Shown here: in pieces, positions 43,796 through 46,700 of the stretch
How the letters are laid out: every line of letters starts with the position of its first letter
How positions within the stretch are numbered: position 1 is the first letter of the stretch
Origin: Escherichia coli
Lineage (GTDB): Bacteria > Pseudomonadota > Gammaproteobacteria > Enterobacterales > Enterobacteriaceae
Strand: one strand, 5' to 3'
DNA length: 64,000 bases
NCBI RefSeq assembly: GCF_030013205.1
Contig: NZ_CP122648.1
Position numbers: made by a program

Positions 43796-46700
43796 GGTTA
43801 TGCGCTGATGCCTGATGCGGCGCGGGCGCGTCTTATCATACCCTGGAAGTCTGCGCCCGAATCGTAGGCCGCCTCCGCTATATTAACTGGCATTGGCAAA
43901 TTACTCGTCACTACCTTTATTCATGTTTTTTTGGTCTTCATCCGGATAATGTTTTTTTAGATATTCCAGGACGTTTTTATTGACCTTGTGTTGCGTATAC
44001 ACCCACCCTTTCCAGTAATCAGGCTGGTCCAGGTAAACTTCTGGCGGAATGGTGAAATCAGAAAGCGTTAACCATTCGGCTAATAGATCGGGGTTTCGTT
44101 TCTGGATTAACTGCAACAGCATAATCAGTGACATAGCTGAGGCAGGAGCCGTACTATCGCCACTTAAATATTTCCACACTGTTGACCGGTTCGAACGAAA
44201 AAGGATCGGTAGCAATGCCCGGTCCAGATTCATTTCATTAAAAATCTTCTCAAATTCATTCATTTAAATTTTCCTGCCTGGCGTAAACCTCTTAAAAATT
44301 GAGATTTATCAAAGAAACGCATTTTAGCACACATAAGGAACCGCTTCACGTTTAGTCCAGAAACAGAATTTATTTCGCTTATCAAAACAAGTCTTTACTC
44401 TTTTTTACATTGAAAGAGCACAAAATGATTTTCGATTTTATTTATATAAGAAACAATTTTTGTTTCTTATTGGTGGTGTTTACGCTTACACCAGACAAAA
44501 ATGCGCTTTACATCACACAAATGGCGGCGTAGATTTCGATTAAATTGCAACGCAGTTTATTTCTTAAAACAATATTATTTGTTTCTTATAGAAACATTAA
44601 TGCGACTTATTTTGAACAAGAGAAAATGAATGAAAACTGTAAACGTAGCTTTACTGGCACTCATAATTTCAGCAACATCCAGCCCTGTTGTTTTAGCTGG
44701 TGATACCATTGAAGCGGCGGCAACAGAGCTTTCAGCCATTAACTCTGGCATGTCGCAATCGGAGATTGAGCAGAAGATTACCCGCTTTTTAGAACGCACA
44801 GACAACAGCCCCGCTGCGTATACCTATTTGACTGAACATCACTACATCCCTTCTGAAACACCTGATACCACTCAGACTCCCACTGTCCAGACAGATCCTG
44901 ACGCAGGACAAAAAACCGTTGCCGCTACAGGTGATGTACAGACAACCGCCCGTTATCAGAGCATGATCAACGCCCGACAGTCTGCGGTAACTGATGCCCA
45001 GCAAACGCAAATTACAGAGCAACAGGCGCAGATCGTAGCCACACAAAAAACGCTCGCCGCGACTGGAGATACGCAAAATACTGCGCATTATCAGGAGATG
45101 ATTAATGCCAGACTGGCGGCTCAAAATGAGGCTAATCAGCGCACTACCACGGAACAAGGGCAGAAAATGAATGCACTGACAACCGATGTGGCAGCACAAC
45201 AGCAAAAAGAAAGGGCTCAATACGATAAACAAATGCAAAGTCTGGCGCAGAAGTCTGTCCAGGCACATGAGCAAATTGAAAGTCTGAGACAAGATTCCGC
45301 ACAAACGCAGCAACAGTTAACCAACACGCAAAAACGGGTCGCAGATAACAGCCAACAAATTAACACGCTCAATAACCATTTCGATTCTCTGAAAAACGAA
45401 GTTGAGGACAATCGTAAAGAAGCCAATGCGGGAACTGCATCAGCCATCGCTATCGCCTCACAACCACAGGTGAAAACCGGTGACTTGATGATGGTGTCAG
45501 CGGGAGCGGGAACCTTCAACGGTGAATCTGCGGTGTCTGTAGGAACATCTTTTAATGCCGGAACGCATACGGTACTTAAAGCAGGTATTTCTGCGGATAC
45601 ACAATCTGATTTCGGTGCGGGTGTCGGCGTGGGATATTCGTTCTAATTTTAACAGCAATTTCTTATTCGCAATTTTCCGTACATTATTTAAGGTTAACAA
45701 TGATGAATAGCTCCATTAAATCGTTTTCCCTGCTGGCGGTTATATTACTGGCTGGCTGTAGTTCACCCACTTCCCGCATCGCAGATTGCCAGGCGCAGGG
45801 CGTCAGCCATGACACCTGTTATCTCGCAGAACAACAGCGTCAGACGGCTATTTTAAGTGCATCCGAGGCGCAGGCATTTAAAAATGCAGAAGCCGCACAA
45901 CATGCCCAGGCGGCAAAGAAAGCCATTTATAAAGGATTTGGAATGACCTTTAGAATGAGCAGTAAAAACTTTGCTTATCTCAATGATTCATTATGTGCAA
46001 TTGATGAAGACAATAAAGATGCCACTGTTTATCAGTCAGGTCTGTATAACGTCATTGTTTATCATCACACAGGAAAAGTCGCCTTAATGAAGGAAGGTCA
46101 ATTTGTGGGTTATTTAAAATGAAGGAGCAAAGGAAAATACCCCTGACGCATATTATGATTATCGGTGCGTTTATTTTTGCCTTCTTGCAAGTAGTATTAT
46201 TAGCCTCCCTGGTTCACGCTGTGAATGTTAACAACGAAATCCAGGAAGGCTTATTTCAGTCGGGGCGCATTATGGTAGAAAGTTTGCAGCATATTCTTTC
46301 GGTGCAAACGGGGATTAACTGATTTTCACCCCGCCCGATGATGACAGCAGCCGGAGAGATTTTCGATAATCGGGCAGTCGGCGCTGTCATCGCCAGGGCA
46401 GGCATTCGCCAGCGCCAACAGCTGGTTGCGCATGGATTGCAGTTCTTCGATATGTCGCTCGATCTCCGCCACTTTCTCCAGGGTGCGACGTTTGACGTCG
46501 GCACTGTGACGCTGCGGATCGTTAAACAGATTCACCAGTTCGCCGCTCTCTTCCAGGTTAAAGCCCACCTGGCGCGCCTGGCGCAGTAAGGTCAGTTCGT
46601 TGAGATGCTGCTGCGTGTAGGTTCGATAACCATTTTCGCTGCGCATCGGCGGCGTCACCAGCCCCTTCTCTTCATAGAAGCGAATGGCTTTGCTGGTCAG

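What the first reader, a model, noticed from the sequence alone, without database searches (positions are those of the whole stretch)
44912..45181. Internal tandem duplication (~135 bp, ~45 aa) in the coiled-coil stalk of the mini-adhesin
Residues 95-139 (KTVAATGDVQTTARYQSMINARQSAVTDAQQ...) and 140-184 (KTLAATGDTQNTAHYQEMINARLAAQNEANQ...) are an imperfect direct repeat. Stalk-length variation by repeat gain or loss is a common way trimeric autotransporters vary, so allelic variants with one or three copies may exist.
Basis: seen in the sequence. Interest (0 to 1): 0.3.

Follow-up and report, generated by a model that had tools for sequence, protein, structure and literature searches.

The report
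Ancient stalk repeat in GmrA autotransporter
The 270-bp segment really does encode two old, diverged copies of a ~45-residue module in the stalk of a small E. coli surface-fibre protein. That is an ordinary way for such proteins to evolve, though related strains do carry one or three copies, and the same gene has been published as a transcription factor (GmrA).

Summary
Residues 95-139 and 140-184 of the 338-aa ORF (44630..45646, +) align without gaps, 24/45 identical, about 14-16 SD above composition-preserving shuffles.

The duplication is ancient. Nucleotide identity is 56%, synonymous sites are saturated, and DNA repeat finders see nothing.

Each unit is a conserved 23-24-aa motif (KTVAATGDxQxxA[RH]YQxM[IV]NA[RK]) followed by a Q-rich helical spacer. 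Unit lengths across the family are 38, 45 or 52 aa, always 7n+3.

The protein is a YadA-family trimeric autotransporter: signal peptide, small helical N-domain, helical stalk, and a four-strand anchor matching Hia, YadA and AtaA.

Among 5,426 complete E. coli genomes about 1,415 carry the locus, and two copies are the rule. About 30 O145-type genomes have a truncated first unit. Three-copy alleles exist at the same ybbJ-cueR locus in E. ruysiae, an Escherichia sp. strain and one draft E. coli, from recent independent duplications.

The main E. coli length polymorphism (338/471/594 aa) comes from a different 369-bp module present 0, 1 or 2 times.

Separately, published deletion primers show this ORF is Z0639/gmrA, reported as a flagellar transcription activator. 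That conflicts with its exported, outer-membrane architecture.

The finding itself is ordinary.

The parts
44630..45646 (+). 338-aa ORF for a YadA-family trimeric autotransporter (RefSeq WP_001550750.1). It is the ortholog of EDL933 Z0639, published as 'gmrA'.
   Evidence: ORF list. 100% match to E. coli K_EC180, annotated 'YadA family autotransporter adhesin'. The published gmrA deletion primers flank exactly this ORF.
44630..44701 (+). Predicted Sec signal peptide, residues 1-24 (MKTVNVALLALIISATSSPVVLA|G)
   Evidence: Read directly from the sequence: a basic N-terminus, a hydrophobic core, and V-L-A before the predicted cleavage site. AF2 leaves residues 1-24 unstructured with pLDDT about 30. 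No signal-peptide predictor was available.
44708..44836 (+). Small N-terminal three-helix domain, residues 27-69. It is conserved across the 338-, 471- and 594-aa alleles and in a distant 708-aa relative (P0135).
   Evidence: AF2 helices 27-34, 43-56 and 61-69 with pLDDT about 77. Sequence conservation seen.
44837..44911 (+). T/P/D-rich, probably disordered linker, residues 70-94
   Evidence: AF2 pLDDT is below 50 over residues 75-104 and no secondary structure is assigned for 70-92.
44912..45046 (+). Repeat unit A, residues 95-139. The conserved core motif KTVAATGDVQTTARYQSMINARQS occupies 44912-44983, followed by a 21-aa Q-rich spacer.
   Evidence: self-alignment. Type-A cores are 83-99% nt identical across alleles and species.
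45047..45181 (+). Repeat unit B, residues 140-184. The core motif KTLAATGDTQNTAHYQEMINARLA occupies 45047-45118, followed by a spacer.
   Evidence: Type-B cores are orthologous across alleles but only 62-72% nt identical to type-A cores. AF2 breaks the helix at G146-D147.
45182..45457 (+). Membrane-proximal stalk with an uninterrupted heptad register, residues 185-276
   Evidence: Hydrophobicity power at period 3.5 is 1.45 here against 0.28 for residues 95-184, with a continuous register from about 196 to 268. AF2 helix 148-276 has pLDDT 88-95 over residues 201-260.
45464..45643 (+). YadA-like membrane anchor, residues 279-338: four beta-strands ending in ...GYSF
   Evidence: Pfam PF03895, E 7.2e-12, 45.6 bits against a cutoff of 22.7. 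phmmer hits to the solved AtaA, Hia and YadA anchors. Foldseek's top four hits are the Hia and YadA anchors at probability 1.00. AF2 predicts four strands.
43901..44263 (-). Divergent 120-aa ORF of the same islet (ortholog of Z0640), function unknown
   Evidence: The only hit is a sub-threshold MqsA-antitoxin match (E 0.081). The z0640 primers flank it in O157:H7.
45700..46122 (+). 140-aa predicted lipoprotein (LAGC lipobox) downstream of the autotransporter, ortholog of Z0638
   Evidence: annotated 'lipoprotein' in O157:H7. No Pfam family and no PDB relative. It co-occurs with the autotransporter in every locus examined.
46119..46322 (+). 67-aa hydrophobic ORF that overlaps the lipoprotein stop codon; the last gene of the islet before cueR (46326-46733, -)

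Best explanation
The segment encodes two paralogous copies (type A and type B) of a stalk module in a small trimeric autotransporter.

Anatomy (shown). Each module is a conserved 23-24-residue motif, K-T-V-A-A-T-G-D-x-Q-x-x-A-[R/H]-Y-Q-x-M-[I/V]-N-A-[R/K], followed by a polar Q/A/T-rich helical spacer. The spacer comes in three lengths, giving units of 38, 45 or 52 aa. These differ by whole heptads and are always 7n+3.

Age (shown). The A/B duplication arose by tandem duplication long ago, before E. coli split from the Escherichia sp. 14.0993/E. marmotae-type lineage. Since then the core motif has stayed under purifying selection while the spacer and the synonymous sites diverged.

Consequence for this allele (shown for divergence, inferred for stability). 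The two DNA copies are now too different (56% identity) to recombine or slip. The copy number is therefore stable in this allele.

Likely role (inferred). The pair contributes about 13 nm (90 aa at about 0.15 nm per residue) to a helical stalk of about 27 nm. That stalk would project the small N-terminal domain away from the outer membrane.

Behaviour across the genus (shown for the events, inferred for the mechanism). The same module is evolutionarily labile. Whenever copies are still similar, unequal recombination or slippage adds or removes units:
- 114-bp, 156-bp and 363-bp recent duplications, each including unit A;
- a 60-bp deletion inside unit A in the O145-type allele;
- 21-bp heptad duplications in the spacer;
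- a separate 369-bp module present 0, 1 or 2 times.

Stalk length is therefore the variable trait.
For: - Repeat significance.
- Age and selection: codon-position identities 30/30/16 of 45. pS is 0.78 (saturated); pN is 0.19 in the core and 0.49 in the tail.
- A and B types are orthologously conserved. A cores are 83-99% identical across alleles, against 62-72% for A versus B.
- Motif and unit lengths: 38, 45 and 52 aa in 39, 13 and 70 spacings between successive units among the cluster representatives, all equal to 3 mod 7.
- Copy number: two copies in 111 of 120 representatives, three in 7, one in 2.
- The variants lie at the same ybbJ-cueR locus.
- Recent duplications seen by TRF: 156 bp x 2.4 at 91%, 114 bp x 2.5-2.8 at 84-88%, 363 bp x 2.0 at 99%, 369 bp x 1.9 at 96% and 21 bp x 1.9 at 89%.
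- The O145 allele with a truncated unit A occurs in about 30 complete genomes.
- Stability in E. coli: 1,034 of 1,414 carrier genomes hold the short allele at full length.
- Trimeric autotransporter identity: PF03895 above threshold, anchors of AtaA, Hia and YadA by sequence and by fold, and AF2 helix 93-276 followed by four strands.
Against: - Trimerisation, surface exposure and any adhesive activity are untested.
- The repeat region has only a weak heptad signal and modest AF2 confidence, with pLDDT about 36-69 over residues 91-150. 'Coiled coil' is therefore inferred there, not shown.
- Strong conservation of the 24-aa core suggests it is more than a spacer.
- The only experimental paper on this gene reports no adherence defect for the islet deletion. 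It assigns the protein a cytoplasmic DNA-binding role instead (PMC5826968).
- The copy-number survey relies on cluster representatives and on BLAST span lengths. It is not an exhaustive per-genome count.
Confidence: 0.85

Rival explanations
1. The conserved 24-residue core of each unit is a functional or special structural site, repeated for avidity or for fibre mechanics, rather than passive length. Possibilities are a ligand-binding site, an ion-binding site, or a non-heptad discontinuity such as a stammer or a beta-layer-like element.
For: - The core has pN 0.19 against 0.49 in the spacer.
- G-D and Y-Q-x-M-[IV]-N-A-[RK] are nearly invariant across Escherichia alleles. They recur in more distant autotransporters: P0124, P0132 (two copies) and P0136 from Enterobacteriaceae bacterium FGI 57.
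- Every unit length equals 7n+3, so each unit carries one non-heptad element.
- AF2 breaks the helix at G146-D147.
- V-A-A-T-G-D-V has the same spacing as the beta-layer hexad M-A-T-K-D-D-I described in PMC4786415. This is a resemblance only.
- Repetitive stalk motifs of BadA bind fibronectin (PMC9602544, abstract listed).
Against: - No solved structure contains the motif.
- The monomer AF2 model cannot show trimer geometry, and in unit A the G-D lies inside a low-confidence helix.
- No binding data exist.
- This reading is compatible with the main explanation rather than exclusive of it.
Confidence: 0.4
2. The repeat in this allele is an active contingency locus whose copy number still switches by slippage or recombination within E. 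coli populations.
For: - Relatives show recent copy gains of the same module.
- Stalk repeats are known length-variation devices in autotransporters (established knowledge; see also the periscope-protein concept, PMC8201768).
Against: - The two copies are only 56% identical at the nucleotide level, and no repeat at the 135-bp offset was reported by the repeat finder (all reported direct repeats are 20 nt or shorter).
- All 43 short-allele rows sampled evenly from 1,414 genomes have the same gene span apart from intergenic indels.
- No three-copy allele was found in 5,426 complete genomes.
Confidence: 0.04
3. The protein is what the literature says it is: a cytoplasmic transcription activator (GmrA) that binds the fliA promoter. 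On this reading the repeated helical region belongs to its oligomerisation or DNA-binding apparatus rather than to a surface stalk.
For: - PMC5826968 reports EMSA and ChIP-qPCR binding to the fliA promoter.
- The same paper reports loss of flagella in gmrA deletion mutants and complementation by the gene.
- Reviews repeat this assignment.
Against: - The ORF that was deleted and cloned is this one.
- It starts with a typical Sec signal peptide and ends with a YadA anchor that passes Pfam's threshold. The anchor matches solved trimeric autotransporter anchors by both sequence and fold.
- No DNA-binding family reaches threshold. The only 'DNA-binding' name is PF12329 TMF_DNA_bd at E 0.2 (12 bits against a cutoff of 35), which together with SMC-type hits is a typical coiled-coil cross-match.
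- An N-terminally His-tagged, unexported, basic and Q-rich helical protein could bind DNA non-specifically. This last point is my inference.
Confidence: 0.07
4. The apparent repeat is a by-product of low-complexity Q/A/T-rich composition.
For: - The region is Q/A/T-rich.
- DNA repeat finders report nothing at period 135.
Against: - Composition-preserving shuffles never approach the observed score: 0 of 2000 and 0 of 500.
- The two motif types are each conserved as orthologs across species.
Confidence: 0.01

Closest known systems
GmrA / Z0639 of O-island 29, E. coli O157:H7 EDL933 (Yang et al. 2018, PMC5826968)
   Same: It is the same gene. The published lambda-Red primers flank this ORF in the window with 1 mismatch each and flank the 338-aa ORF in O157:H7 exactly. 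The islet also matches: Z0640, Z0639 and Z0638 between ybbJ and cueR.
   Different: The paper describes a transcription activator with a 'putative DNA-binding domain' and does not mention the signal peptide, the YadA anchor or the internal repeat. My sequence and fold tests find a trimeric-autotransporter architecture and no supra-threshold DNA-binding domain.
Neisseria meningitidis NadA (a small trimeric autotransporter that is mostly coiled coil; from my own knowledge)
   Same: Both are short proteins of about 330-400 aa without YadA-head or neck Pfam domains. Each has a helical passenger attached directly to a YadA-type anchor, and alleles differ by insertion or deletion of helical segments.
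   Different: There is no detectable sequence similarity outside the anchor. NadA did not appear in the PDB sequence search at E <= 1. The N-terminal three-helix domain and the KTVAATGD...YQxMINAR motif are specific to this enterobacterial family.
Moraxella UspA1/UspA2 and Bartonella BadA/Vomp modular stalks (UspA from my own knowledge; BadA from PMC9602544, abstract listed)
   Same: The stalks are built from repeated cassettes whose number differs between strains. In BadA, repeated stalk motifs can themselves bind ligands.
   Different: Those are much larger proteins with head, neck and stalk repeats recognised by Pfam and daTAA. Here the only Pfam domain is the anchor, and the copy number in E. 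coli is almost fixed at two.
Periscope proteins: variable-length surface proteins with high-identity DNA repeats (PMC8201768)
   Same: At family level, the gene varies in length between strains (338/436/471/480/497/577/594 aa) through tandem units of 114-369 bp at 84-99% identity. This would change how far the tip domain is projected.
   Different: The repeat pair in this window is only 56% identical at the DNA level and is not variable. The periscope criteria fit the 369-bp module and the recent unit-A duplications in other alleles, not this pair.
Non-heptad elements of trimeric coiled coils: stammers and beta-layers (Hartmann et al. 2016, PMC4786415)
   Same: Each unit equals a whole number of heptads plus 3 residues. 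The V-A-A-T-G-D-V stretch has the same spacing as the hexad beta-layer M-A-T-K-D-D-I, and AF2 breaks the helix at G-D in unit B.
   Different: The residues differ: G replaces K/D and there is no K/R at the position after the layer. No trimer structure is available, so this remains a lead and not a classification.

Membership tests
Trimeric autotransporter adhesins (type Vc secretion, YadA family) | C-terminal YadA-like membrane anchor (four beta-strands per chain, aromatic C-terminus) | tested here: met
   PF03895 over residues 279-338, E 7.2e-12, 45.6 bits against a cutoff of 22.7. phmmer matches to AtaA, Hia and YadA anchors with E from 5e-7 to 0.04. Foldseek's top four PDB hits are Hia and YadA anchors at probability 1.00. 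AF2 predicts four strands, and the sequence ends in GYSF.
Trimeric autotransporter adhesins (type Vc secretion, YadA family) | N-terminal Sec signal peptide | tested here: inconclusive
   The sequence MKTVNVALLALIISATSSPVVLA|GD has the canonical n-, h- and c-regions on inspection. No signal-peptide predictor was available. AF2 leaves residues 1-24 unstructured.
Trimeric autotransporter adhesins (type Vc secretion, YadA family) | Coiled-coil stalk running into the anchor | tested here: met
   Residues 185-276 show an uninterrupted heptad register (power 1.45 at period 3.5). AF2 helix 148-276 has pLDDT up to 95. The signal is weaker in the repeat region 95-184.
Trimeric autotransporter adhesins (type Vc secretion, YadA family) | Obligate homotrimer displayed on the cell surface | not testable with these tools
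   This needs SDS-PAGE of heat-resistant trimers, protease shaving or immunofluorescence, or a multimer structure prediction.
Trimeric autotransporter adhesins (type Vc secretion, YadA family) | Adhesive function (binding to host or abiotic surfaces, or autoaggregation) | not testable with these tools
   The only relevant experiment found: deleting OI-29 in O157:H7 did not change adherence to HeLa or Caco-2 cells (PMC5826968). No YadA head or neck domains were detected.
GmrA-type transcription activator (as published for Z0639) | Identity with the gene studied | tested here: met
   The deletion primers gmrA F/R and gmrA-03 F flank this ORF in the window and in O157:H7.
GmrA-type transcription activator (as published for Z0639) | A recognisable DNA-binding domain and a cytoplasmic location | tested here: not met
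   No DNA-binding family reaches threshold in Pfam or NCBIfam. The nearest names are TMF_DNA_bd (E 0.2, 12.1 bits against a cutoff of 35) and SMC (23.7 bits against a cutoff of 567), both typical coiled-coil cross-matches. The signal peptide and the outer-membrane anchor argue against a cytoplasmic location. The location itself was not tested.
Periscope-type variable-length surface proteins | Tandem repeats with high DNA identity | tested here: not met
   This pair has 76/135 nt identical, and TRF and the repeat finder are silent. The criterion is met by other repeats in other alleles: 369 bp at 96%, 363 bp at 99%, 156 bp at 91% and 114 bp at 84-88%.
Periscope-type variable-length surface proteins | Repeat-number variation between strains | tested here: met
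   At family level, unit copy number is 1, 2 or 3, and the 123-aa module is present 0, 1 or 2 times. Within this allele class no variation was seen.

The most novel reading that the evidence does not exclude
The gene published and reviewed as the cytoplasmic flagellar transcription activator GmrA is actually an exported outer-membrane trimeric autotransporter, so its effect on fliA and motility would be indirect, for example through envelope signalling. In addition, its twice-repeated 24-residue motif, always spaced at 7n+3 residues, would be a previously undescribed non-heptad stalk element of a family of small enterobacterial autotransporters.
Probability: 0.45. Interest if true: 0.5.

Novelty: new member of a known kind. 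Interest (0 to 1): 0.3.

Why it matters
The repeat itself is a textbook way for fibrous surface proteins to evolve, so it changes little.

It does give a clean small example of hierarchical repeat evolution in a trimeric autotransporter. There are 21-bp heptad duplications, 114-156-bp units and 363-369-bp modules. One old pair is frozen by divergence while younger copies are still being gained and lost. This defines at least seven length classes (338 to 594 aa) that could be compared for how far the tip domain is projected.

The more consequential by-product is annotation hygiene:
- This ORF is the gene called gmrA and cited as a horizontally acquired transcription factor, yet its sequence is that of an outer-membrane fibre.
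- RefSeq truncates the longer alleles to 349 aa by choosing an internal start codon.

Both points affect how O-island 29 is interpreted in EHEC, ExPEC and APEC.

Tried and rejected
- DNA-level repeat detection on the gene (repeat finder with seed 6, TRF with minimum score 30) found no period-135 repeat. The repeat is visible only at protein level.
- A PDB sequence search with the two-unit segment gave only a chance hit to Nup62 at E 0.5, so there is no structural template for the motif.
- I tested whether the downstream lipoprotein is a SadB-like helper or has any solved or curated relative. There is no Pfam family. NCBIfam gives only sub-threshold TraV and Lpp-like hits, and PDB gives nothing with E below 0.39. 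This is left open.
- The 120-aa divergent ORF has only a sub-threshold MqsA-like hit (E 0.081) and no PDB relative.
- The promoter and terminator scan around the gene found nothing above the shuffle expectation.
- A first self-dot-plot script timed out. The vectorised rerun succeeded.
- I considered a 'single-chain trimer' AF2 run to see the geometry at the A-T-G-D motif. I did not run it, because the tool returns only confidence and secondary structure. Parallel and antiparallel packing could not have been told apart.
- My first Ka/Ks comparison for the L011 duplication was out of register. I replaced it with the TRF result: 363 bp x 2.0 at 99%.
- A literature search for a description of this gene as a trimeric autotransporter found none. 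In the searchable library, Z0639 appears only as GmrA.
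Full report
**Where the window comes from and what the gene is**

The window is E. coli chromosome. The stretch 43800-46330 is 100% identical to strain K_EC180.

The finding lies in a 338-aa ORF at 44630..45646 (+). RefSeq names it 'YadA family autotransporter adhesin'.

The ORF sits in a four-gene islet inserted between ybbJ (43257-43715) and cueR (46326-46733, -). The islet consists of:
- a divergent 120-aa ORF (43901-44263, -);
- the autotransporter;
- a 140-aa lipoprotein (45700-46122);
- a 67-aa hydrophobic ORF (46119-46322).

The islet is present in about 1,415 of 5,426 complete E. coli genomes, always on the chromosome.

**Checking the observation**

The two quoted peptides are there verbatim.

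Protein-level evidence:
- The ungapped alignment has 24/45 identical residues.
- The local alignment score is 110, against 27.2 +/- 5.1 (max 53) in 2000 shuffles.
- In a self-comparison of the whole protein, offset 45 is the outstanding diagonal. It scores 130, against a null best of 43.5 +/- 6.2 (max 75) in 500 composition-preserving shuffles. The next best offsets are 14 (score 56) and 7 (score 41).

DNA-level evidence:
- The copies share only 76/135 bases.
- Third codon positions match at 16/45, against 30/45 at the first and second positions.
- Neither repeat finder nor TRF reports a period-135 repeat.
- Nei-Gojobori counting gives pS 0.78 (saturated) and pN 0.33. The first 24 codons have pN 0.19 and the last 21 have pN 0.49.

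This is an old duplication whose N-terminal core has been kept by selection.

**What the protein is**

- Pfam finds a YadA_anchor domain at residues 279-338 (E 7.2e-12, 45.6 bits against a cutoff of 22.7) and nothing else above threshold.
- The same region aligns to the solved anchors of AtaA, Hia and YadA.
- The four best Foldseek hits of the AF2 model in the PDB are Hia and YadA anchors at probability 1.00.
- The N-terminus reads as a standard Sec signal peptide (MKTVNVALLALIISATSSPVVLA|GD). This rests on inspection only.

The AF2 model was built from a 30-sequence alignment and has mean pLDDT 69. It shows:
- a small three-helix domain at residues 27-69 (pLDDT about 77);
- an unstructured T/P/D-rich linker at 70-92;
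- a helix at 93-145;
- a two-residue break at G146-D147;
- a helix at 148-276;
- four beta-strands.

A crude heptad analysis shows a clean, uninterrupted register only for residues 185-276. Power at period 3.5 is 1.45 there against 0.28 for residues 95-184.

The protein passes the testable membership criteria of the trimeric autotransporters. The repeat lies in the membrane-distal half of the helical stalk, which is less canonical. Trimerisation, surface display and adhesion could not be tested.

**Anatomy of the repeat across the family**

A search of the 5.8-billion-protein collection returned 315 relatives. The 120 best are Escherichia proteins of 227-586 aa.

I built an HMM from the first 23 residues of the units and counted copies in those 120 representatives:

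| Copies | Representatives | Notes |
|---|---|---|
| 2 | 111 | the rule |
| 3 | 7 | see 'Copy-number variants' below |
| 1 | 2 | one is an N-terminal fragment |

The conserved motif is K-T-V-A-A-T-G-D-x-Q-x-x-A-[R/H]-Y-Q-x-M-[I/V]-N-A-[R/K]. What follows it is a Q/A/T-rich spacer of variable length.

The distance between successive unit starts takes three main values:

| Unit length (aa) | Unit spacings observed | Residue mod 7 |
|---|---|---|
| 38 | 39 | 3 |
| 45 | 13 | 3 |
| 52 | 70 | 3 |

The spacer therefore changes by whole heptads. In the 52-aa units TRF sees the responsible 21-bp x 1.9 micro-duplication. Each unit also carries one non-heptad increment.

The motif recurs in more distant small autotransporters:
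- once in P0124;
- once in P0136 (Enterobacteriaceae bacterium FGI 57);
- twice in P0132.

It has no relative among solved structures.

**Age and orthology of the two copies**

I compared the 72-nt cores of the units from eight alleles:
- first units (type A, '...ARYQSMI...') are 83-99% identical to one another across E. coli and the Escherichia sp. 14.0993 (E. marmotae-type) allele;
- last units (type B, '...AHYQEMV...') group with one another;
- A versus B is only 62-72% identical.

The A/B split therefore predates the divergence of E. coli and the Escherichia sp. 14.0993/E. marmotae-type lineage. In E. ruysiae the third unit looks A-like in its motif, which suggests conversion or replacement. 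I did not pursue this.

Variants exist, all at the orthologous ybbJ-cueR locus.

| Allele | Source | Units | Underlying DNA event |
|---|---|---|---|
| 480 aa | E. ruysiae | three 52-aa units | TRF 156 bp x 2.4, 91% matches |
| 497 aa | Escherichia sp. 14.0993 type | three 38-aa units, one more than the 459-aa E. marmotae allele | TRF 114 bp x 2.5-2.8, 84-88% |
| 577 aa | draft E. coli assembly and one metagenome | unit A duplicated together with part of the upstream module | 363 bp x 2.0, 99% |
| 436 aa | E. coli O145 type | 20-aa deletion inside unit A, leaving one intact motif | full-length, at least 99% identical copies in about 30 complete genomes |

It is always the A-type unit that is gained or damaged.

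Among complete E. coli genomes I found no three-copy allele:
- the 577-aa query gave no hit at 99% identity or above, and its best hits span only 1,416 bp;
- the 497- and 480-aa queries gave no hit at 95% identity or above.

**What actually varies in E. coli**

I took an evenly spaced sample of 60 out of 1,414 carrier genomes:
- 43 rows have the short-allele span (1,697-1,733 bp for a 1,701-bp query; the differences are a roughly 32-bp intergenic indel and one 4-bp difference);
- overall, 1,034 genomes cover at least 80% of the query;
- the other rows span 2,132, 2,469 or 2,499 bp, plus one at 2,041 bp.

Reading the ORFs shows that the longer alleles are 471 and 594 aa. They carry one or two copies of a different 123-aa module (RDNGQDTAIQ...ADQQK) between the N-domain and unit A. 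The window allele has none. In the 594-aa alleles this module is a 369-bp x 1.9 tandem repeat at 96% identity.

The gene is indeed length-polymorphic through stalk repeats. In E. coli, however, the polymorphism is carried by this younger module, while the KTVAATGD pair stays at two copies.

P0012 (345 aa) joins the short allele's N-terminus to the long allele's 52-aa units, which indicates recombination between allele classes.

**How it most likely works**

Shown:
- a tandem duplication;
- purifying selection on the core;
- heptad-quantised spacers;
- recurrent recent gains and losses wherever copies are similar.

Inferred:
- The units are helical stalk segments. At about 0.15 nm per residue for a coiled coil (established value), a 45-aa unit adds about 6.7 nm, the pair about 13 nm, and the 123-aa module about 18 nm to a stalk of about 27 nm.
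- Copy changes arise by unequal recombination or replication slippage.
- In this allele the copies have diverged beyond the reach of either process, so the number is frozen.

The conservation of the core, the 7n+3 rule and the AF2 helix break at G-D all suggest that the motif is a specific structural or binding element and not filler. Its V-A-A-T-G-D-V stretch has the same spacing as the M-A-T-K-D-D-I beta-layer hexad of PMC4786415. That is only a resemblance, and I could not test it.

**Comparison with what is known**

- The architecture is closest to small coiled-coil autotransporters such as NadA (my own knowledge).
- The cassette behaviour resembles the UspA and BadA stalks (PMC9602544).
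- It also resembles the 'periscope protein' idea of variable-length surface proteins (PMC8201768).

None of these is a sequence relative outside the anchor. The phenomenon is of a known kind. This particular motif and its family have not been described in the literature I could search.

**An unexpected conflict with the literature**

O-island 29 of O157:H7 EDL933 is described as a 2,643-bp islet with z0638, z0639 and z0640. Z0639 was named GmrA and reported as a transcription activator that binds the fliA promoter (PMC5826968). Reviews repeat this.

The paper's lambda-Red primers show which ORF that is:
- 'gmrA R' matches window 44591-44632, ending at the ATG of this ORF;
- 'gmrA-03 F' matches 45647-45684 (-), directly after its stop codon;
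- in an O157:H7 genome, the gmrA primers flank exactly the 338-aa autotransporter ORF;
- the z0638 primers flank the lipoprotein;
- the z0640 primers flank the 120-aa ORF.

GmrA is therefore this signal-peptide-plus-YadA-anchor protein.

The paper's 'putative DNA-binding domain' came from CDD. In my scans the only such name is PF12329 TMF_DNA_bd at E 0.2 (12 bits against a cutoff of 35), alongside SMC-type coiled-coil cross-matches. That this hit is what CDD displayed is my inference.

I cannot judge the experiments. I can say that the sequence predicts an exported outer-membrane fibre, and that the same paper found no adherence defect for the islet deletion.

**Verdict**

One- and three-copy alleles exist, but this pair is ancient and fixed, and a different module drives length variation in E. 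coli.
- The finding is an ordinary new example of a known kind, with interest about 0.3.
- The GmrA discrepancy and the uncharacterised 7n+3 motif are the parts worth someone's follow-up.

Noticed in passing
window 44630-45646 (+); primer matches at 44591-44632 (+) and 45647-45684 (-): This autotransporter ORF is Z0639/gmrA of O-island 29, published as a cytoplasmic transcription activator of fliA (PMC5826968). The published deletion primers flank exactly this ORF. Yet it has a signal peptide and a supra-threshold YadA anchor, and no supra-threshold DNA-binding domain.
   Followed up: yes
L002 2565-3614, L003 2103-3152, L004 2472-3521, L014 1366-2415 (RefSeq CDS) versus full ORFs L002 1830-3614, L003 1737-3152, L004 1737-3521, L014 631-2415: RefSeq/PGAP annotates the long alleles as 349-aa 'YadA-like family protein', starting at an internal codon. 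This leaves about 1.1 kb 'empty' upstream. The intact ORFs encode 471 or 594 aa with the same signal peptide and N-domain as the short allele.
   Followed up: partly
L002 2127-2841 (absent from the window allele; the insertion point corresponds to about window 44890-44911): A separate 369-bp (123-aa) stalk module, RDNGQDTAIQ...ADQQK, is present 0, 1 or 2 times. When doubled, the copies are 96% identical. It accounts for the 338/471/594-aa length classes in E. coli.
   Followed up: yes
L002 2967-3006; L011 2569-2626: A 21-bp (one heptad) tandem micro-duplication lies inside the Q-rich spacer of the 52-aa units. It explains why unit lengths step by 7 residues (38, 45, 52).
   Followed up: partly
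P0012 (345 aa, NCBI assembly): This is an apparent recombinant allele. Its N-terminal 94 residues are of the short (window-type) allele, joined to 52-aa units and the C-terminal part of the long-allele type.
   Followed up: no
L007 3787-3858 (third unit of the E. ruysiae allele): The last unit has an A-type motif (81% nt identity to A cores, 64-69% to B cores) but a B-type tail (KLA...). This suggests gene conversion or replacement of the B unit in that lineage.
   Followed up: no
window 44556-44599: A 22-bp x 2.0 AT-rich tandem repeat (consensus TTTATTTCTTAAAAAAACATTA, 77% matches) lies about 30-75 bp upstream of the start codon, next to a weak sigma-70-like site at 44507-44535. It may be a regulatory site.
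   Followed up: no
window 45647-45699 (between the autotransporter and the lipoprotein gene): Many other alleles (O157:H7, ATCC 11775 and others) carry about 32 extra bp in this intergenic region. As a result, the published gmrA F primer for EDL933 has no counterpart in the window allele.
   Followed up: partly
window 46730 onward (-), downstream of cueR: A HlyD-family type I secretion adaptor gene and a type I secretion permease/ATPase gene directly abut cueR. I think this is an OI-28-like RTX/type I secretion region, but that is from memory and was not checked. Some genomes lack these genes and have ybaT next to cueR instead.
   Followed up: no
window 44789-45313 (-) and 45217-45519 (-): Long antisense ORFs (174 and 100 aa, rich in L, C and R) overlap the stalk-coding region. 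Similar ones appear in the long alleles. They are most likely a by-product of the Q/A/T codon composition, which has few reverse-complement stop codons. There is no evidence that they are genes.
   Followed up: no
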